Of a DNA stretch of 64,000 nucleotides, positions 34,407-56,262 are shown in pieces. Under the pieces are notes generated by a model, which did not search any database, was not told where the DNA came from, and was given only the letters and a program-made list of their open reading frames with translations. This stretch comes from a virus. The stretch's first letter is position 1, and every line of letters starts with the position of its first letter. Location of the stretch: IMG/VR virus record IMGVR_UViG_3300017750_000004. One strand, 5' to 3'. Both the position numbers and the translations under genes were made by a program.

Positions 34407-34808
34407 CTATAGAGAGCAGACACTCCCCTCTTCGGATGAGTCGAATCGATTATCGCCACATCCATATTTTCCATCATTATCAGTATCACACGCCTGTTGC
34501 CATGTAATCATGTCAAAGGTCAAACCTTCGCTCCAAGGAACATAGGCTTTACACCATTCATGAGACCCAGGTTGAAAAGGATCTTGTGGTTCTGGTACGT
34601 AGTCTCTAGATGTCCAAGGCTTTTGTACACGAAAAAACGTGTCCTTGTTTTTCATTAGCTGTCTTTTAAACAGCGCACTGCGAGTATTACTGATATAGAT
34701 TTCTTGCCCTTCCTTAAGCGTGTACGTTGATCCATCATCGTAGTTAATAACGGTTTCTGCTGCTACAGTGGTTGAGATAATAGCTAGCAGAGCTAAAAAA
34801 TATTTCAT
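34407..34808 (-). CDS. Secreted / periplasmic hypothetical protein
   Basis: Signal peptide MKYFLALLAIISTTVAA; four Cys; RBS GGAG. Confidence 0.6.
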   Translation of the reverse strand: MKYFLALLAIISTTVAAETVINYDDGSTYTLKEGQEIYISNTRSALFKRQLMKNKDTFFRVQKPWTSRDYVPEPQDPFQPGSHEWCKAYVPWSEGLTFDMITWQQACDTDNDGKYGCGDNRFDSSEEGSVCSL

Positions 34809-41977: not shown

Positions 41978-42571
41978 TTATCCCCATTGTAGTGCCATTG
42001 CGGCTGCTATACCAAAAAATGTGACACTTCGTTCTTTTCCTTGACCTCCACCAAATTTATCATAACCAGTGTCACCTTGGTTACTCCATCGAGGTTTTCC
42101 ATCTACATACCGAGGTTCTATAACTTCGGTAGGTTCTAAGGGTGCCAAGCCCCTCAGCCACAAACCAGTTTTCTTTGAAGCGTCTTCTCCGTAATTATAT
42201 GGCTGGACATATTGGGGCTTTGGCATAAAATCGAGGCGGGTGTTGATACAACCCACCGGGTTTTCAATACACAGCTTTTCTACTGGCGCTTCCCAGATGG
42301 CTGTGATAAAATTAAGGGCTTCTTCGGTTTTCTGAGCTCTTCCTTCAATTTTCTTATTCCAATGTAACCCAGAAGCAGCAAGATAAGTGCAGGGAGGGTG
42401 AGCAATAATAAGATCCCAGCTAGGGTCATAAAGTATATCAAGAATATCTCCTTGAATATGTGGTCCTCGTGCTTCAGTAGGAAGAAGATCGCATGAAATT
42501 GCATCATGGCCCATTGCTATAAAGCAGTCCCGGACGGTTCCGCTAAATTCACACGCTACTAAAACTTTCAT
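41978..42571 (-). CDS. DNA cytosine methyltransferase-like protein
   Basis: MKVLVACEFSG..R..F, SCDL.P, WDLIIAHPPCT, ENPVG, KKTGLWL, RS.TF.GIA.AMA.QW. Confidence 0.78.
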   Translation of the reverse strand: MKVLVACEFSGTVRDCFIAMGHDAISCDLLPTEARGPHIQGDILDILYDPSWDLIIAHPPCTYLAASGLHWNKKIEGRAQKTEEALNFITAIWEAPVEKLCIENPVGCINTRLDFMPKPQYVQPYNYGEDASKKTGLWLRGLAPLEPTEVIEPRYVDGKPRWSNQGDTGYDKFGGGQGKERSVTFFGIAAAMALQWG

Positions 42572-42594
42572 TACGCTTTCCTTAATTTTAGATA

Positions 42595-42623
42595 ATTATA
42601 CTCGAAGGGAGCATCAAAGTCAA
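42595..42623 (-). promoter_or_regulatory. Sigma70 promoter
   Basis: TTGACT-17-TATAAT. Confidence 0.82.
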
Positions 42624-42643
42624 GCGTTATTTTTGGCAGGTTC

Positions 42644-42672
42644 AAAAAATCCCCAAGTAGTACGTGTTGGGG
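42644..42672 (-). terminator. Intrinsic terminator
   Basis: CCCCAA-10 nt-TTGGGG-ATTTTTT on the minus strand. Confidence 0.6.
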
Positions 42673-42687
42673 TGCGCGCGAGCGCTA

Positions 42688-42706
42688 AATGAGAATGAGT
42701 CTCATT
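42688..42706. promoter_or_regulatory. Fur-box-like 9-1-9 palindrome
   Basis: AATGAGAAT-G-AGTCTCATT (one mismatch to a perfect inverted repeat). Confidence 0.5.
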
Positions 42707-42728
42707 ACCGCCCCCCCCCCCGGCCCGG

Positions 42729-42757
42729 AGGGTAACACATCCCCGGCCTGGGGTCAA
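42729..42757 (-). promoter_or_regulatory. Leftward promoter
   Basis: A-tract, then TTGACC-17-TACCCT. Confidence 0.5.
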
Positions 42758-42874
42758 GCGATTTTTTTGTGACATATTACCATAAAAAAGCCTGTACTTT
42801 TGGGCGGCAACTGGGTTATAATGCTTGCATCGGCTGGGGGATTGGCTCTCGGCTAAAACCAAAGGTAGCACTTT

Positions 42875-43168
42875 ATGTCTAACTATACTGATAAAATGGT
42901 TGCGGCGATTCGCGCGGCGGCTCCTCTCAATCTCGCAAAGGCAAAGCAACTCGCCTCTGATTTCGGGAGCGTATCACATCGCTCGGTCATTAGCAAGGCT
43001 CAATCCCTTGGGGTTGAGTATGTTAAGGCGGCTCCCGCCGCTCGCGTTTCTCGCGGCCCTACCAAGGCCGACATTCTCGCGGAGATCCGCACCGCGCTGG
43101 CGATGCCTGCCCGCGAAGGCGACTTCACCAAGGGCGAGCTGTCCAACATCCTGAGCAACATCGGATGA
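42875..43168 (+). CDS. A2: T5 A2-like DNA-binding protein
   Basis: NYT..M...LA..FG.VS.RSVISK...LG..Y.K pattern shared with T5 A2 and two paralogues; first pre-early gene. Confidence 0.65.
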   Translation: MSNYTDKMVAAIRAAAPLNLAKAKQLASDFGSVSHRSVISKAQSLGVEYVKAAPAARVSRGPTKADILAEIRTALAMPAREGDFTKGELSNILSNIG

Positions 43169-43362
43169 TAGCGGTTATCGGCTGGTGCGGAGCGGGGGCT
43201 ATGGCCCTCGCCCCTTTCGCAATCGATACCGACGCGGGCAAGCTGGCCGCTATCGGTGGGTTGGTATTATTAACGGTTCAAGCGCTTGACATTCGGGCTT
43301 ACAATCTGGTATTCTTGAATCTGGCTGGAATTATAGGTTACTCTTATGCACTTTATTTTTGA
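43165..43362 (+). CDS. Small multi-TM membrane protein
   Basis: 65 aa hydrophobic ORF, ATGA-coupled. Confidence 0.6.
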   Translation: MIAVIGWCGAGAMALAPFAIDTDAGKLAAIGGLVLLTVQALDIRAYNLVFLNLAGIIGYSYALYF

Positions 43363-43819
43363 TCTTGACCATACGGTTATCGACAGCTCACACCGACAGA
43401 TCACGCGGCCCGATGGCTCGCTTGATCTTGCGGCATGGCGTCAGAACAACACCCGCGCAAACATCATGCGTGACACCCTGCTACCCCTCGCGGCACAATG
43501 GCGACGGCTGGCAAAAAAGAATGTCACCATCGTGATCTGCACTGCCCGCGTTATGGGGGAACATGATTACGAATATCTACGGGAGCATGGCTTGCGCTGG
43601 GATGCTTGCCTATCGCGGCGAGAGGGGGACGCCACACCTGACGCGGATCTAAAAGAAAAGATGATCCGAAACTATGCTCGCACCCGCCCGATGGGATGGG
43701 GTAAATTTTGCGCGACTGCGGTATTTTATGATGACAATAAATCCGTTTTGAAAATGCTTGACCGCATCGGCATAAAAGCGTATGATTCAATTTCACTTAA
43801 CGAGAGGCTTTCAGCATGA
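43346..43819 (+). CDS. dmp: HAD-family deoxynucleoside-5'-monophosphatase (T5 Dmp-like)
   Basis: FDLDHTVIDSSHR...DGSLDL...IMRDTLLPL...ICTAR.M...DY.YLR..GL...YDD matches T5 Dmp. Confidence 0.82.
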   Translation: MHFIFDLDHTVIDSSHRQITRPDGSLDLAAWRQNNTRANIMRDTLLPLAAQWRRLAKKNVTIVICTARVMGEHDYEYLREHGLRWDACLSRREGDATPDADLKEKMIRNYARTRPMGWGKFCATAVFYDDNKSVLKMLDRIGIKAYDSISLNERLSA

Positions 43820-44319
43820 TATTACGATCAACAGATACAGCACCTGAGATCACCCCCATCTCTGGTATGGCTTGGCACTACGTTTGGGAACTGCTAGAAT
43901 TTGGCGTTTTCAAAAACGGGTATGCCCGACACGCTTACGCGAACGGGCGACACGGTGGTATCGAGCGCGTGACTTGGTGCTTGCGGGATGTTGAGGACGC
44001 TTTCGGCTACAATCGCGGGGAGCTTCACGCTCGCGTATGGCGAATGAAGCTGGGCGATAACGAGCAGGTGCTTGCCGCCGAGCAATTTGTTCACGCTCGC
44101 AACAAAGATGACAAGGCGATGCTATATGACAAGCGTTGGCTTGAGGTTGGCGGCAAATCAGAATTTTATTTCTGCTCTGCCAAAACCGCGATGGCTCGCT
44201 TCACTAACAGCTATCGCCAATCTAACTTGCAGATTGGCGAGGGTATTGTTGCCCACAAGCGAGCGAAGGGTATACACGGTTGTCCTCTGCCGGTAGACTA
44301 TGCTGAGGTGACGGCGTGA
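43816..44319 (+). CDS. Hypothetical pre-early protein
   Basis: 167 aa ORF coupled by ATGA. Confidence 0.6.
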   Translation: MILRSTDTAPEITPISGMAWHYVWELLEFGVFKNGYARHAYANGRHGGIERVTWCLRDVEDAFGYNRGELHARVWRMKLGDNEQVLAAEQFVHARNKDDKAMLYDKRWLEVGGKSEFYFCSAKTAMARFTNSYRQSNLQIGEGIVAHKRAKGIHGCPLPVDYAEVTA

Positions 44320-44423
44320 GATTTGGCGCGGCACTCGCCGCCCTCTATTTCCTCTATAGCGTGATTACCGATCTCGCTATATGGGGAGCCGCAATTTACT
44401 ACTGGTTTAATGGGGGATTCTGA
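44316..44423 (+). CDS. 35 aa membrane peptide
   Basis: GAGG RBS, GTGA/TGATG coupling: MRFGAALAALYFLYSVITDLAIWGAAIYYWFNGGF. Confidence 0.55.
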   Translation: MRFGAALAALYFLYSVITDLAIWGAAIYYWFNGGF

Positions 44424-45022
44424 TGAAAAAATTGCAAGCTAATCTGAACCGGCTCGCGGAGAATCTCTCCGCTCCGGTTGCGGTAATTTTAGAGGGGCGC
44501 GACACTGCGGGCAAATCCTCTACCATTCGAGAATTGACCCACTACCTACCGCCGGATCTTTACAGCGTTTGCCTATCGCACAAACCGACAAAACAAGCGA
44601 TGGCAAGCTGGCTCCCCTATTGGGAAACCAAACTGCCGCGACAAAATCGCATCGTGTTTTTTGACCGAAGCTGGTACAGCCGGGGCATGGTGCAACATTT
44701 GAATGGCTGGTGCACTCCGCGACAATACAAAAATTTTATGCGGCGTCATAAAAACTGGGAAGCTAACCAGCCGGTGCGCTTTATTAAATTTTGGCTTTCG
44801 ATTTCGGAACAAGAACAGCAACGCCGAATTATAGCTCGCAAGCATTCGCCCCTGACCTATTGGAAATTTTCTGCTAATGATGAAAACGCACTTTCGCATT
44901 ATGACCGCATGAGCATATTAAAAGAGCGCGTTATTGATTCCGACTGGCACACTGTAGATTATGCCGACAAAAAACGCGGGATCAAAAATTTGCTGGCTAC
45001 TTTATGCGAACGGCTCGCATAA
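44423..45022 (+). CDS. ppk2: Polyphosphate kinase 2 (single domain)
   Basis: Walker A EGRDTAGKS, Walker B FDRSWY, KFWLSIS..EQ.RR, lid WKFSAND. Confidence 0.9.
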   Translation: MKKLQANLNRLAENLSAPVAVILEGRDTAGKSSTIRELTHYLPPDLYSVCLSHKPTKQAMASWLPYWETKLPRQNRIVFFDRSWYSRGMVQHLNGWCTPRQYKNFMRRHKNWEANQPVRFIKFWLSISEQEQQRRIIARKHSPLTYWKFSANDENALSHYDRMSILKERVIDSDWHTVDYADKKRGIKNLLATLCERLA

Positions 45023-45038
45023 GGTTCCACGTGGAACA
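45023..45038. promoter_or_regulatory. parS: Chromosomal-type parS (ParB-binding) site
   Basis: GGTTCCACGTGGAACA (reverse complement TGTTCCACGTGGAACC); fits the bacterial parS consensus TGTTNCACGTGNAACA. Confidence 0.75.
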
Positions 45039-45121
45039 CAACCCCTTGATTTATAACGATTTTTGGCGCGCGGGCGCCAGTGCGAAAGTGAAGTTTCGAT
45101 TCGATTGGTGTTACCTGCGCC

Positions 45122-45334
45122 AGAATACGTGCAAAAGCGACGATTGTCAAGTCTTTTTTGCGGGTATGGGCAAAATTTTTTTAAGAACGTGCAGTCTTTG
45201 TGCCAGACCCCGTGCCCACCCTGGTAGTATACGCGCAAAGCCCGGGATTGTCAAGAACTTTTTACGGCAATAGGGCAAATTGTTTTAAAAAGCGCGGCGC
45301 GCCAATTATACAGTAGTACACCGACGATTGTCAA
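45122..45334 (-). promoter_or_regulatory. Three tandem leftward sigma70 promoters
   Basis: TTGACA-17-TATTCT (45150-45122), TTGACA-17-TATACT (45254-45226) and TTGACA-18-TATAAT (45334-45305); all share CTTGACAATC. Confidence 0.72.
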
Positions 45335-45538
45335 GTACTTTTTGCACAATTGGTGCAAATAAATCGATTGACAAGTCTCTGCGGGGTAGTGTAAGATGGC
45401 AAATTGTGGCAAACCTGGGGCAAACAGTGTCAAATTTACGAAAATTTTGGCAGATTAAGTGCAAAAAACACTTGACAGCCGCAATTTCGTACGCCGCCCC
45501 CCGGAATAAATTTATGTTGGGGGTATGGCAAAAATTGT

Positions 45539-45567
45539 TTGACATTGAAACCCGGAGCCGGTATAAT
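45539..45567 (+). promoter_or_regulatory. Early promoter
   Basis: TTGACA-17-TATAAT. Confidence 0.85.
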
Positions 45568-45589
45568 ATTTATAAATCGGAGGAACTAT

Positions 45590-45781
45590 ATGAACGATAT
45601 TCAATTTGAAGCCTTTAGCTTGTACGCAGGTATGCGTATGGACGGAGTGCCTAAACTAGACGCTTTTCTCTATACCATACGTTGTTTGTTACCAGACGAA
45701 GAGTACCCCAACGGATACGATGACAGTGCAGTAGAGCTGTACTCTTGGCTGCGGGAGAAGGTAAAGTTAGATGATGTATAA
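45590..45781 (+). CDS. Hypothetical protein
   Basis: GGAGG RBS; MNDIQFEAFSLY... Confidence 0.65.
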   Translation: MNDIQFEAFSLYAGMRMDGVPKLDAFLYTIRCLLPDEEYPNGYDDSAVELYSWLREKVKLDDV

Positions 45782-46199
45782 GTTAAAGGTAAAAGCAAAA
45801 AAAGCATGGTCAATGCCTGAACGATACTTAGCTCGAGCTGCGATCGACTTTGCTATGGGAGAACTTGATCTAGGAATCACTCCTGTGCCTATTACTATAT
45901 ATCTTAAAGGCGAGCACGAAACAGACTTTGGAGATTCTGTAGACCTAGGGCATAAAATTATTCTTCGTATTAATAAAAGTTCTCATTGGCTACGAACTAT
46001 ATTTCATGAGCTAGAGCACGCTCGCCAATACATTTACTGCGAGCTTGAGTTAGAAACCGATCATGCTATGTGGCAAGACGAACTATTTAAAAGAGACATT
46101 GATAACTGGGATGAATATTGGAGTGCTCCGTGGGAGGTAGCTGCAAGGGAAAAAGAAGTAGAATTATTTGCAGCTTTCCAAAAAAATCTCTTGACATAA
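45771..46199 (+). CDS. Zinc metallopeptidase-like protein
   Basis: TIFHELEHARQY (HExxH) and PWEVAA motif. Confidence 0.7.
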   Translation: MMYKLKVKAKKAWSMPERYLARAAIDFAMGELDLGITPVPITIYLKGEHETDFGDSVDLGHKIILRINKSSHWLRTIFHELEHARQYIYCELELETDHAMWQDELFKRDIDNWDEYWSAPWEVAAREKEVELFAAFQKNLLT

Positions 46200-49984: not shown

Positions 49985-50365
49985 TCACTGGTTTAGAATA
50001 CTCTCTAAATCTGGGGCGAAAAAGCCCGGGCCTTTCATTACCTTGCCATTGTCTGCTTTAATTGGTGTTCCATCTTCACCGAGTTTGCTCATGTTAGAAG
50101 CATGTACTTCAGTAAAACACTCATCAAGGTCAATACCAAATGTATGACCAGCACCGTATACAACATAGAGAATGTCGGTGAGAGCGTCGGCGATTTCGAC
50201 CATATCTTTGTTTGCAATCGCTTCCACCAATTCATCTACTTCTTCTTGTATTAAATCTACCCGTAGTTCACGAGTGCTAAAGTCAGGCCAGGTTGGTTGA
50301 GTTTCTACAGCCTGACCAAAGGCTTCCATAAAATCACCAACTAACTCAAAATTTGTTCCGTCCAT
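49985..50365 (-). CDS. MazG-like NTP pyrophosphohydrolase
   Basis: LIQEEVDEL...EIADALTDILYVVYG...EVHASNMSK. Confidence 0.85.
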   Translation of the reverse strand: MDGTNFELVGDFMEAFGQAVETQPTWPDFSTRELRVDLIQEEVDELVEAIANKDMVEIADALTDILYVVYGAGHTFGIDLDECFTEVHASNMSKLGEDGTPIKADNGKVMKGPGFFAPDLESILNQ

Positions 50366-50543
50366 TATCGTTTCTCTTTCGTTTGAATCTTGCGACTGCA
50401 GCCTGCTTAGCCAGTCGTCGTTTTTCGCTTCGTGGTACATAATATTCCTTCTGTTTATAATCCCATAGTGTTTCTGAACATTTTTTCTTGAAAACTCGTA
50501 GAGCAGCGTCTACGTTATTGTTACGTACTTTAACTTTTGGCAT
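50346..50543 (-). CDS. rpsU: Ribosomal protein bS21
   Basis: MPKVKVRNNNVDAALRVFKKKC...YKQKEYYVPRSEKRRLAKQAAVARF; AAGGAG RBS. Confidence 0.9.
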   Translation of the reverse strand: MPKVKVRNNNVDAALRVFKKKCSETLWDYKQKEYYVPRSEKRRLAKQAAVARFKRKRNDNGRNKF

Positions 50544-51093: not shown

Positions 51094-51516
51094 ATGACTA
51101 ATGCTAAACTAGCAGTGGCAGACCTGCATAAATTTATGTTAGGTTTTGACCGAATGTTTCATGATACCAGTGTTTTTGCCCCCACACTCGATGGTGGGTA
51201 CCCTCGATTCAATATTCTACGCGTAGGCGAGACGGGCCATAGGGTCGAATTAGCTGTGCCAGGCTGGAATAAAGATGATCTTGAGATTAGCCTTCATAAG
51301 GGCTTATTGACAGTATCGGGCACTGTAAAGCAAACAGAATCTAGTAACGAAACTTATGTTTACAAAGGCTTAAGCGGTAAGTGCTTCTCACGCACATTCG
51401 GCGTAAGTGAGCACGTAAAACTAGACAAAGCTTATATGGAACGCGGACTGCTATGTATTGATTTACATGAAGAAATCCCTAATGAACTGCAACCCGTAAA
51501 GGTTACAATTTCATAA
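51094..51516 (+). CDS. Small heat-shock protein Hsp20 (IbpA-like)
   Basis: GFDRMF...YPRFNI...VELAVPG...L.V.G...YVYKGLS...F.R.F.V..HV....A.MERGLL.IDL...IP. Confidence 0.93.
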   Translation: MTNAKLAVADLHKFMLGFDRMFHDTSVFAPTLDGGYPRFNILRVGETGHRVELAVPGWNKDDLEISLHKGLLTVSGTVKQTESSNETYVYKGLSGKCFSRTFGVSEHVKLDKAYMERGLLCIDLHEEIPNELQPVKVTIS

Positions 51517-55733: not shown

Positions 55734-55820
55734 ATGGAATTTCTAGCAGGGTACTTCCTGTTTCTTACGCTCTCGCTTATTTCATTCTTATGGATTGAGC
55801 AGATTCAGAGTGGGCGATAG
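55734..55820 (+). CDS. 28 aa membrane peptide
   Basis: AGGAG RBS; MEFLAGYFLFLTLSLISFLWIEQIQSGR. Confidence 0.5.
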   Translation: MEFLAGYFLFLTLSLISFLWIEQIQSGR

Positions 55821-55896
55821 GTTCTATCACCAACAATTAGCGGCCACGGGAAACTGTCCCGGGGCTACCATTTCACAACGTAGAAGGAAACGAAGA

Positions 55897-56262
55897 ATGG
55901 CATGGGATGACGAAAAGAAAGCAGCAGTAATTGAACAATACGAAGCTGCAAATCCAACTCCAGAGAACAGCATGGAGATCGTCGCGGAGCTTGCGGAAGA
56001 ATTTGAAGAGTCACCAAACGGTGTTCGTATGATTCTTACTAAAGCAGGCGTGTATGTAAAGAAAGCCCCCGCTTCTGGTGGAGCCAAAAGCACAGCCTCG
56101 AATGGTGGTAGTGGCGGGCGTGTATCAAAAGCTGCCGCCATTGAAAGTTTGTCTGCTGCAATCTCTGATGCAGGTCAAGAAGTTGACCAAGAGATTCTTG
56201 ACAAGCTAACTGGCAAAGCTGCTGTATACTTTACAGGTGTTATTTCCGCAATTAATTCATAA
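55897..56262 (+). CDS. D3: T5 D3-like DNA-binding protein
   Basis: SMEIVAELAEEFEESPNGVRMILTKAGVYVKKA...SKA...ILDKLTGKAA closely matches T5 D3. Confidence 0.85.
   Translation: MAWDDEKKAAVIEQYEAANPTPENSMEIVAELAEEFEESPNGVRMILTKAGVYVKKAPASGGAKSTASNGGSGGRVSKAAAIESLSAAISDAGQEVDQEILDKLTGKAAVYFTGVISAINS

What the first reader, a model, noticed from the sequence alone, without database searches (positions are those of the whole stretch)
45002..45038. Perfect host-type parS site at the end of the pre-early (first-injected) segment of a lytic T5-like phage
Seen: GGTTCCACGTGGAACA (45023-45038) starts on the base after the ppk2 stop. It has a perfect 14-bp palindromic core, is intergenic, and abuts a second palindrome (TTATGCGA-ACGGC-TCGCATAA, 45002-45022). 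It was the only such site I noticed in the window. A specified 14-mer is expected about 64000/4^14, roughly 2e-4 times, by chance. Known: this is the chromosomal parS consensus (TGTTCCACGTGGAAC[A/C] in Pseudomonas), where ParB CTPase clamps load, spread and recruit SMC/ParA. T5-like phages inject in two steps and pause at an injection-stop signal near the end of the pre-early DNA. No parA/parB gene is visible in this window. Inference: the phage may load host ParB/SMC onto the first-entering DNA, to anchor or pull the rest of the genome in, to position replication, or to titrate ParB from the host chromosome. I know of no described example, and it could be an unrecognised host-hijack system.
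Basis: partly seen in the sequence, partly recalled or inferred. Interest (0 to 1): 0.88.

Follow-up and report, generated by a model that had tools for sequence, protein, structure and literature searches.

The report
Orphan host parS in marine phage
An uncultured marine T5-like phage keeps one perfect copy of the bacterial chromosome "centromere" (parS) but has no partition genes, so it most likely borrows the host's ParB protein, as Bacillus phage phi29 is known to do.

Summary
GGTTCCACGTGGAACA lies at 45023-45038, one base after the PPK2 stop. It is the only such site in the window and in a 101-kb, near-complete relative.

It is not chance. Of 72 evaluable metagenome relatives, 66 keep a perfect 14-bp core. 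The flanks are unconserved and the distance to ppk2 varies from 5 to 818 nt. More distant relatives carry GTTTCACGTGAAAC, a symmetric switch between two canonical parS forms.

No ParB, ParA or integrase was found in the complete relative. The site always opens a conserved non-coding hub of promoter-like repeats and GC palindromes.

The "pre-early/injection-stop" framing is only partly supported. A T5 Dmp homologue lies 1.2 kb upstream. However, A1 is absent, the hub has no DnaA-box array, and the genome ends are unmapped.

"No described example" is wrong. Phi29 has five host-type parS sites used through host Spo0J.

Across IMG/VR the parS 16-mer occurs in at least 119 contigs, against 7 for a reversed control. 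Only 3 of 100 of those contigs encode a ParB domain. This scan had already noted orphan parS on at least five other phages.

Verdict: a real, selected element and probably a host-ParB loading site; what ParB loading does for the phage is unknown. It is a new variant of a known kind.

The parts
45023..45038 (.). Orphan chromosomal-type parS: 14-bp perfect palindrome at 45024-45037, 15 of 16 to TGTTCCACGTGGAACA
   Evidence: Conserved in relatives. Symmetric C/G to T/A switch in distant relatives.
44423..45022 (+). Polyphosphate kinase 2 gene, last gene of the GC-rich block; its stop directly precedes parS
   Evidence: Pfam PPK2 E 2e-38. Used to fetch relatives.
45002..45022 (+). 8-nt-arm palindrome inside the 3' end of ppk2 (includes the stop). 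A predicted RNA hairpin, not part of parS
   Evidence: RNA fold. It separates from parS in relatives with an inserted ORF.
45039..45589 (.). Conserved non-coding hub whose left edge is parS: GC palindrome, tandem promoter-like repeats and a run of (G/T)GCAAA repeats; ends at the RBS and ATG (45590) of the next + strand gene
   Evidence: Summed contig depth peaks here because co-occurring relatives share it.
45065..45078 (.). GGCGCG-CG-GGCGCC palindrome, first of a family that follows parS by 27 to about 115 nt in all relatives
45122..45334 (-). Three tandem leftward sigma70-consensus promoter-like sites (45334-45305, 45254-45226, 45150-45122) pointing across parS into ppk2
   Evidence: 12, 11 and 10 of 12 matches. 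Repeat family D1/D3. Conserved in relatives.
45368..45567 (+). Two rightward promoter-like sites (45368-45397, 45539-45567) leading into the small early genes
43346..43819 (+). HAD phosphatase homologous to T5 pre-early Dmp; the only T5 pre-early marker in the block
   Evidence: BLASTP against T5 Dmp: 34% identity, E 7e-19. PHROG/Pfam PNKP-type HAD.

Best explanation
The site is an orphan, host-type parS: a loading site for the host's chromosomal ParB on the phage genome. What the sequence shows: it is one of the two canonical parS palindromes; it is under purifying selection in a whole clade of marine T5-like phages; the phage encodes no ParB or ParA of its own; and the site always forms the left border of a conserved non-coding promoter and repeat hub. 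What is inferred: host ParB-CTP clamps load here and spread over the neighbouring phage DNA. This would couple the phage genome to the host's ParA and/or SMC machinery, so that it is positioned, compacted or passed to daughter cells, most usefully when the lytic programme is delayed (starved host, carrier state). The inference rests on established ParABS biology and on phi29, where host Spo0J acts on phage parS sites. My estimates: about 0.65 that host ParB binds; about 0.35 that positioning or partition is the purpose.
For: Exact canonical core; consensus as listed in review PMC7022226. Conservation: 66 of 72 evaluable metagenome relatives and most IMG/VR relatives keep a perfect core, while the flanks are unconserved and the offset from ppk2 runs from 5 to 818 nt. 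Only canonical variants occur. Relatives with PPK2 at 62-67% identity carry GTTTCACGTGAAAC. L063 and L011 share a flanking palindrome yet carry different canonical variants at the same position. There is exactly one site in the 101-kb relative G001. G001 has no ParB_N, HTH_ParB, TIGR00180, ParA (AAA_31) or tyrosine integrase. Window-specific ORFs give no ParB hit. The distance from parS to the first GC palindrome varies from 27 to about 115 nt, which suits a loading site with sliding clamps rather than a fixed protein contact. Precedent: phi29 has five parS sites and Spo0J-dependent prespore segregation. Generality: the parS 16-mer is in at least 119 IMG/VR contigs against 7 for the reversed control, and a ParB domain is present in only 3 of 100 of them. 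Host clue: the relative G001 carries an alpha-type permuted tmRNA. From my own knowledge, ParABS is near-universal in Alphaproteobacteria.
Against: There is no binding data, and the host is unidentified, so neither its ParB nor its parS variant could be checked. One relative (L009) has cleanly lost the site, one has a CG-to-TG change, 5 of 72 metagenome relatives lack it, and more distant PPK2-bearing relatives (L013-L019) lack it, so it is dispensable. On linear DNA, sliding clamps can run off a free end. No carrier state or pseudolysogeny is documented for this clade. The constant position at the hub border hints at a local role (regulatory or origin-linked) that simple partition does not explain. 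Cultured Vibrio T5-like phages, whose hosts have ParABS, carry no parS.
Confidence: 0.55

Rival explanations
1. One reading: parS marks the end of a short first-step-transfer segment, and host ParB (or SMC) acts as an injection stop, an anchor or a pulling device for two-step DNA entry.
For: A T5 Dmp homologue lies 1.2 kb upstream. parS borders a conserved untranslated repeat region that superficially resembles the T5 iss region. Davison proposed that host DnaA bound to DnaA boxes arrests T5 injection, which is a conceptual analogue. Contigs identical to the window have about 1.6-2.5 times the depth over about 42.4-45.6 kb in 3 of 4 runs, as a short terminal repeat would give.
Against: A1 is absent, and A2 has only a weak match located in the early region. 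There is no DnaA-box array. The ends are unmapped and contig breaks scatter across the hub. The extra depth can equally come from k-mers shared with co-occurring relatives, and the tool itself warns against reading depth. The three leftward and two rightward promoters resemble the T5 mid-repeat divergent pre-early promoters more than its iss. Natural variants without parS exist, whereas an injection-stop signal should be essential.
Confidence: 0.1
2. Local regulatory role: ParB loaded at parS spreads over the adjacent promoter cluster and modulates it. It could silence or insulate the promoters, or block the three leftward promoters from running antisense into the dmp-ppk2 operon. That would tie early transcription to host cell-cycle or CTP state.
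For: parS always sits at the hub border, 27 to about 115 nt from the first GC palindrome and about 80 nt downstream of the nearest leftward promoter. In P. aeruginosa, ParB at parS3 and parS4 represses adjacent promoters (PMC7022226). A Fur-box-like palindrome occupies the same slot in relatives, which suggests a slot for host-factor sites. Phi29 likewise combines Spo0A boxes with parS.
Against: Chromosomal ParB usually has weak effects on transcription. The spacing is variable. No expression data exist. The promoters are consensus matches only.
Confidence: 0.12
3. Host takeover by titration or mislocalisation: replicating phage DNA carrying parS draws ParB, and in an alphaproteobacterial host its partners MipZ and PopZ, away from the origin. 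This would disturb chromosome segregation or block division.
For: A sliding-clamp loader can load many clamps per site, and phage DNA reaches high copy number (established ParB-CTP biology, my knowledge). The alpha-type tmRNA in relative G001 hints at an alphaproteobacterial host. Such hosts typically couple ParB to division control (my knowledge).
Against: This is entirely inferential. One site per 100 kb is a weak sink early in infection. Phages usually encode protein inhibitors for this purpose. The host is unknown.
Confidence: 0.07
4. The palindrome is the operator of a phage-encoded DNA-binding protein, or an RNA hairpin or terminator, that merely coincides with parS.
For: It follows a stop codon directly and lies in a region rich in other palindromes. 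The phage encodes several DNA-binding proteins.
Against: Only the two canonical host variants are seen across relatives. The same 16-mer is at least 17-fold enriched over a reversed control in unrelated viral contigs. In the RNA fold parS is not in a hairpin, no U-tract follows, and the z-score is -1.18.
Confidence: 0.08
5. Chance occurrence, or a passive remnant of host DNA captured together with ppk2.
For: The 42-46 kb block has 47-50% GC against 38-40% elsewhere. A single 14-mer hit is not rare across a very large scan.
Against: The core is invariant while the flanks diverge. ORFs have been inserted between ppk2 and parS without loss of parS. Related phages without ppk2 next to the site also carry parS, for example L034. 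No bacterial ppk2-parS neighbourhood was found, though that search was shallow.
Confidence: 0.02

Closest known systems
Host-type parS sites of virulent Bacillus phage phi29 (Spo0J-dependent segregation of the phage genome into the prespore; Meijer et al. 2005, as summarised in PMC2731898)
   Same: A virulent phage without parA or parB carries chromosomal-type parS and exploits the host ParB. Binding sites for a second host regulator sit in its control regions (Spo0A boxes there, a Fur-box-like palindrome here).
   Different: Phi29 has five sites in a 19-kb protein-primed podovirus of a spore-former. Here there is one site (two in some relatives) in a roughly 100-kb T5-like siphovirus of a marine, probably Gram-negative and non-sporulating host, so spore entrapment cannot be the purpose. 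Binding is untested here.
Chromosomal ParABS centromere (consensus tGTTNCACGTGAAACa; ParB-CTP clamp loading, ParA activation, SMC recruitment)
   Same: Identical sequence class. Both variants seen in the phage clade are natural chromosomal variants.
   Different: There is no cognate ParB or ParA on the replicon, the site is not next to a chromosomal oriC, and it is a single copy.
T5 injection-stop signal region, and Davison's proposal that host DnaA bound to its DnaA boxes arrests DNA entry (bioRxiv 10.1101/866236)
   Same: A T5-like phage with a conserved untranslated repeat region next to pre-early-type genes, carrying a site for a host origin-region DNA-binding protein.
   Different: There are no paired DnaA boxes and no A1, A2 is not in the block, terminal-repeat boundaries are unknown, and the site is lost in some natural variants.
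Partition cassettes of plasmid-prophages (P1, N15, mycobacteriophage extrachromosomal prophages)
   Same: A phage genome bearing a centromere.
   Different: Those encode their own ParA and ParB with element-specific parS, and they are temperate. Here the centromere is the host's and no lysogeny genes were found.
Plasmid stabilisation by a single chromosomal parS in cis (Lin and Grossman 1998 and later work; cited from my own knowledge, not checked here)
   Same: It shows that one orphan parS is enough for host Soj/Spo0J-dependent inheritance of a foreign replicon.
   Different: That was an engineered plasmid, not a natural lytic phage.

Membership tests
Chromosomal-type parS (ParABS centromere) | 16-bp palindrome matching tGTTNCACGTGNAACa | tested here: met
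   14 of 14 core and 15 of 16 overall. Most relatives have the full 16-mer with the 5' T. Consensus taken from PMC7022226.
Chromosomal-type parS (ParABS centromere) | Under selection: conserved where flanks diverge, and changes keep the dyad and stay within known variants | tested here: met
   66 of 72 metagenome relatives are perfect; flanks are unconserved; symmetric C/G to T/A switch.
Chromosomal-type parS (ParABS centromere) | Specific, CTP-dependent loading of ParB | not testable with these tools
   Needs EMSA, BLI or ChIP-seq with the host ParB, and the host is unknown.
Chromosomal-type parS (ParABS centromere) | Cognate parAB on the same replicon | tested here: not met
   No PF02195, PF17762, TIGR00180 or PF13614 match in the 100%-complete relative G001 or in three partial relatives. 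The site is therefore an orphan.
phi29-type hijack of host ParB by a virulent phage | Virulent phage lacking partition and lysogeny genes but carrying host-type parS | tested here: met
   No ParA, ParB or tyrosine integrase in G001. T5-like gene content.
phi29-type hijack of host ParB by a virulent phage | Host ParB-dependent handling of the phage genome (in phi29, spore entrapment) | not testable with these tools
   No host and no experiments. A sporulating host is unlikely, given sigma70 consensus promoters, a Fur-type box and an alpha-type tmRNA in a relative.
T5 injection-stop signal (iss) | Lies in the large untranslated repeat region at the inner end of the terminal repeat | tested here: inconclusive
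   An untranslated repeat hub is present. Terminal-repeat boundaries are not mappable from contigs, depth gives only a weak hint, and contig breaks scatter.
T5 injection-stop signal (iss) | Paired DnaA boxes in inverted repeats (Davison) | tested here: not met
   One TTWTNCACA box in the hub; 7 in the window against about 7.5 expected.
T5 injection-stop signal (iss) | Pre-early genes A1 and A2 that restart transfer | tested here: not met
   A1 has no match in G001 or G003. A2 matches only at E 9e-4, in the early region. The 97-aa ORF has no similarity to A2. Dmp alone is present.

The most novel reading that the evidence does not exclude
Orphan host centromeres are a widespread, unrecognised phage strategy. 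In this T5-like clade the site is placed at the border of the first-expressed DNA so that host ParB serves as an infection checkpoint. In a probable alphaproteobacterial host, ParB might act together with polar or division partners such as PopZ and MipZ. The checkpoint could anchor or pause the entering genome, block host division, or hold the phage genome at the host origin until conditions allow lysis.
Probability: 0.12. Interest if true: 0.85.

Novelty: new variant of a known kind. Interest (0 to 1): 0.6.

Why it matters
If host ParB really loads on this site, strictly lytic, abundant ocean phages use the bacterial chromosome-segregation machinery without encoding any of it. That gives a concrete, testable handle on several open questions: how lytic phage genomes are positioned in the cell, how they persist in slow-growing cells (pseudolysogeny), and whether they interfere with host division. 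The wider census suggests the phi29 case is the tip of a general phenomenon rather than a curiosity of spore-formers: at least 119 viral contigs carry the parS 16-mer against 7 for a control, and almost none encode ParB. Practically, parS on a phage could also serve as a host-range marker, since it should be absent from phages of ParB-less hosts such as Enterobacteriaceae.

Tried and rejected
1. Own genome search: no genome is held for the window.
2. blastn of 43-47 kb against cultured phages: no match.
3. Terminator or hairpin reading: parS is unpaired in the predicted fold, no U-tract follows, z-score -1.18.
4. Mixed-variant sites as a chance control: abandoned, because the mixed form is itself a natural parS (the B. 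subtilis consensus, from my own knowledge) and also sits in short-ORF contexts. It was replaced by the reversed-pattern control.
5. Host identification through PPK2 in GTDB genomes: gave only a 3-kb, probably mis-binned contig and distant MAGs.
6. Terminus mapping: all 22 runs are kept as contigs; no read starts; contig ends scatter over 45.08-45.76 kb.
7. parS in cultured T5-like phages: none in four Vibrio Pogseptimavirus genomes or in Pectobacterium phage My1.
8. A2-like identity of the 97-aa ORF: rejected.
9. DnaA-box architecture in the hub: rejected.
10. Link to phage ParB-dependent T-dioxygenases (PMC13229309): those use phage-encoded ParB and are not relevant here.
11. Livny et al. 2007 could not be read.

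Full report
**Observation.** The + strand ORF 44423-45022 ends with TAA at 45020-45022 and is followed directly by GGTTCCACGTGGAACA at 45023-45038. The ORF is a polyphosphate kinase 2 (Pfam PPK2, E 2e-38). The 14-bp core is the only exact copy in the window. In an RNA fold it forms a hairpin while parS stays unpaired, no U-tract follows, and the z-score is -1.18. The pair is therefore not a terminator.

**What the window is.** Late genes run on the - strand from 1 to 42571. They include the tape measure, major tail protein, a protease-capsid fusion, portal and TerL. From about 42.8 kb the genes run on the + strand. First come small genes, then lysis genes, a DNA-binding protein, a split NAD ligase, a D5-like regulator, DnaB, primase and DNA polymerase. 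TerL is about 50% identical to Demerecviridae, including My1, Vibrio Pogseptimavirus and T5 relatives. "T5-like" therefore holds, though distantly, and there is no nucleotide match to any cultured phage. The stretch from 42 to 46 kb has 47-50% GC against 38-40% elsewhere. No genome is held for the window. Near-identical DNA occurs in seawater and viral metagenomes from 12 studies.

**Conservation.**
- PPK2 fetched 20 IMG/VR loci. The exact core lies downstream of ppk2 in L001-L005 and L007-L008. L006 has GTTCCATGTGGAAC and L009 has none. Relatives with PPK2 at 62-65% identity (L010-L012) carry GTTTCACGTGAAAC, twice in L010.
- A metagenome scan added 80 loci. Of the 72 that have enough downstream sequence, 60 carry GTTCCACGTGGAAC, 6 carry GTTTCACGTGAAAC, 1 has one mismatch and 5 have none.
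- In an alignment anchored on the site, nothing outside the 16-mer is conserved.
- The offset from the ppk2 stop ranges from 5 to 818 nt, because relatives have inserted small ORFs. parS stays with the non-coding region to its right, nearly always directly after a stop codon.
- L063 (C/G form) and L011/L012 (T/A form) share the same flanking palindrome. The two arms have therefore switched together at one orthologous position.

The site is nevertheless dispensable. L009 shows a clean loss against the otherwise alignable L007, and the more distant PPK2-bearing relatives L013-L019 lack it.

**No partition genes.** The relative G001 (101,258 bp, CheckV 100%) is collinear with the window. It has exactly one parS-like site at up to one mismatch. 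It has no ParB_N, HTH_ParB, TIGR00180, AAA_31-type ParA or tyrosine integrase. About 45 window ORFs scanned against Pfam or PHROGs also give no ParB. The window itself was not searched in six frames with a ParB profile, which is a limitation.

**Surroundings.** parS is the left border of a conserved 550-nt non-coding hub (45039-45589). Three elements follow it.
- A GGCGCG...CGCGCC palindrome lies 27 nt after parS in the window and 27 to about 115 nt after it in relatives.
- There are three tandem leftward promoter-like sites with 12, 11 and 10 of 12 consensus positions, and two rightward ones.
- There is a run of (G/T)GCAAA repeats.

Summed contig depth peaks here because co-occurring relatives share this stretch.

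**Test of the T5 framing.** The HAD phosphatase at 43346-43819 is a true homologue of T5 Dmp (34% identity, E 7e-19). T5 A1 finds nothing in G001 or G003. T5 A2 finds only a weak match (E 9e-4), equivalent to window ORF 55795-56262 in the early region. The 97-aa ORF at 42875-43168 shows no similarity to A2.

The T5 iss is annotated at the inner end of the left terminal repeat, and Davison describes eight paired DnaA boxes there. The hub here has a single DnaA-type box, no more than expected by chance. With three leftward promoters and a rightward one, the hub resembles the T5 mid-repeat divergent pre-early promoter region at least as much as it resembles the iss.

The genome ends could not be mapped. 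All runs are held as contigs and contig ends scatter over the hub. Contigs identical to the window have about 1.6-2.5 times the depth between about 42.4 and 45.6 kb in three of four runs. That would fit a short terminal repeat, but it would equally fit k-mers shared among strains, and the tool warns against reading depth. "End of the first-injected segment" therefore remains an analogy.

**What is known.** Virulent phage phi29 carries five host-type parS sites, and host Spo0J is involved in segregating its genome into the prespore. Spo0A boxes act alongside them in its promoter regions (PMC2731898, citing Meijer et al. 2005). The review PMC7022226 lists the consensus TGTTNCACGTGAAACA and variants such as TGTTCCACGTGGAACG. 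It notes the absence of par genes in Enterobacteriaceae and Pasteurellaceae. It also reports that P. aeruginosa ParB at parS3 and parS4 represses neighbouring promoters. Other literature hits concerned engineered parS tags or phage-encoded ParB.

**Generality.** The same pattern read backwards matches 7. Of the first 100 parS-bearing contigs, 3 have any ParB_N match. Of the 26 rated at least 90% complete, 1 does. The sites sit in short-ORF or intergenic contexts far more often than random positions do: 47% against 12% lie in frames of under 100 codons. Four cultured Vibrio T5-like phages and phage My1 have no parS. This scan's earlier notes record at least five other phages with orphan parS. 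Those notes agree with my census but are not independent proof.

**Host clues.**
- The promoters match the sigma70 consensus.
- A Fur-box-like palindrome (AATGAGAAnnATTCTCATT) occurs at 42688-42706 in the window and at the same place in most relatives. It lies next to parS in L011 and L063, and it takes parS's place in L015, L017 and L019.
- G001 carries a permuted tmRNA of the alphaproteobacterial type (Rfam alpha_tmRNA 92.7 bits; tmRNA_permuted 117 bits). The window has none.

An alphaproteobacterial host is plausible but unproven.

**Reading.** Shown by the sequence: a canonical parS under selection, orphan, at the border of a regulatory hub. Inferred: host ParB-CTP loads there. What follows from loading is open. 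I rank the possibilities as follows:
- positioning, partition or compaction by host ParA or SMC, as in phi29 and in plasmid-stabilisation experiments (about 0.35);
- modulation of the adjacent promoters (about 0.12);
- an injection stop or anchor (about 0.1);
- a phage-encoded binder (about 0.08);
- ParB titration or a division block (about 0.07);
- chance or hitch-hiking (about 0.02).

The variable spacing to the hub elements fits a clamp-loading site better than a fixed architecture.

**Verdict.** This is a new variant of a known kind. It is of moderate to high interest, because the site is so well conserved in an abundant ocean phage clade and because orphan parS appears widespread in viral contigs.

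Noticed in passing
window 42688-42706; L001 4257, L009 4183, L011 3797 and 6665, L015 4091 and 7170, L017 1339 and 1374, L063 1528: A Fur-box-like palindrome (AATGAGAAnnATTCTCATT) is conserved in the divergent intergenic region upstream of the dmp-ppk2 block. In some relatives it sits directly beside parS or in its place. This suggests host Fur (iron status) also acts on this phage region.
   Followed up: partly
window 45122-45334 (- strand) and 45368-45567 (+ strand): Three tandem near-consensus leftward promoter-like sites point antisense across parS into ppk2, with no ORF of their own. Each is followed by a GC palindrome at about the predicted start site. Two rightward promoter-like sites follow. 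The layout recalls the divergent pre-early promoters of T5.
   Followed up: partly
L029 240-666 (G001 100,240-100,666): The complete relative encodes a permuted, alphaproteobacterial-type tmRNA (Rfam alpha_tmRNA 92.7 bits, tmRNA_permuted 117 bits; tag ANDDIYALAA). The window has none. This is a phage-borne tmRNA and a clue to the host class.
   Followed up: partly
IMG/VR loci L030-L148: The perfect parS 16-mer occurs in at least 119 viral contigs against 7 for the reversed control. Only 3 of 100 of these contigs encode a ParB domain. Several small contigs carry 3-5 sites (L037/L066, L067, L046, L065).
   Followed up: partly
L010 7108 and 7132; L241, L242, L245-L247: The T/A-type relatives often carry two parS copies in tandem, 24 bp apart start to start.
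   Followed up: no
window 42000-46000: A GC-shifted block (47-50% against 38-40%) holds the Dmp homologue, PPK2 and the hub. Contigs identical to the window show about 1.6-2.5 times the depth here in three runs. This could be a short terminal repeat or a collapse of shared sequence.
   Followed up: partly
L034 895 and 5624 (contig of 34,445 bp): A different phage that shares a few genes with the window (lysis gene, one late gene) has parS in a long gene-free region upstream of its early genes, plus a second copy 4.7 kb away.
   Followed up: no
window 42709-42722: A run of about 12 C followed by GGCCCGG lies in the divergent promoter region next to the Fur-like box.
   Followed up: no
G001 1-523 and 100754-101258; window 34426-34748: The two ends of the relative's contig are 86% identical over 525 bp, and a similar stretch lies inverted among the window's late genes. 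This may be a duplicated or mobile small gene rather than a true terminal redundancy.
   Followed up: no
window 49985-50440 (-) and 51094-51516 (+): A MazG/PRA-PH-type nucleotide pyrophosphohydrolase and an Hsp20 small heat-shock protein lie among the small early genes.
   Followed up: no
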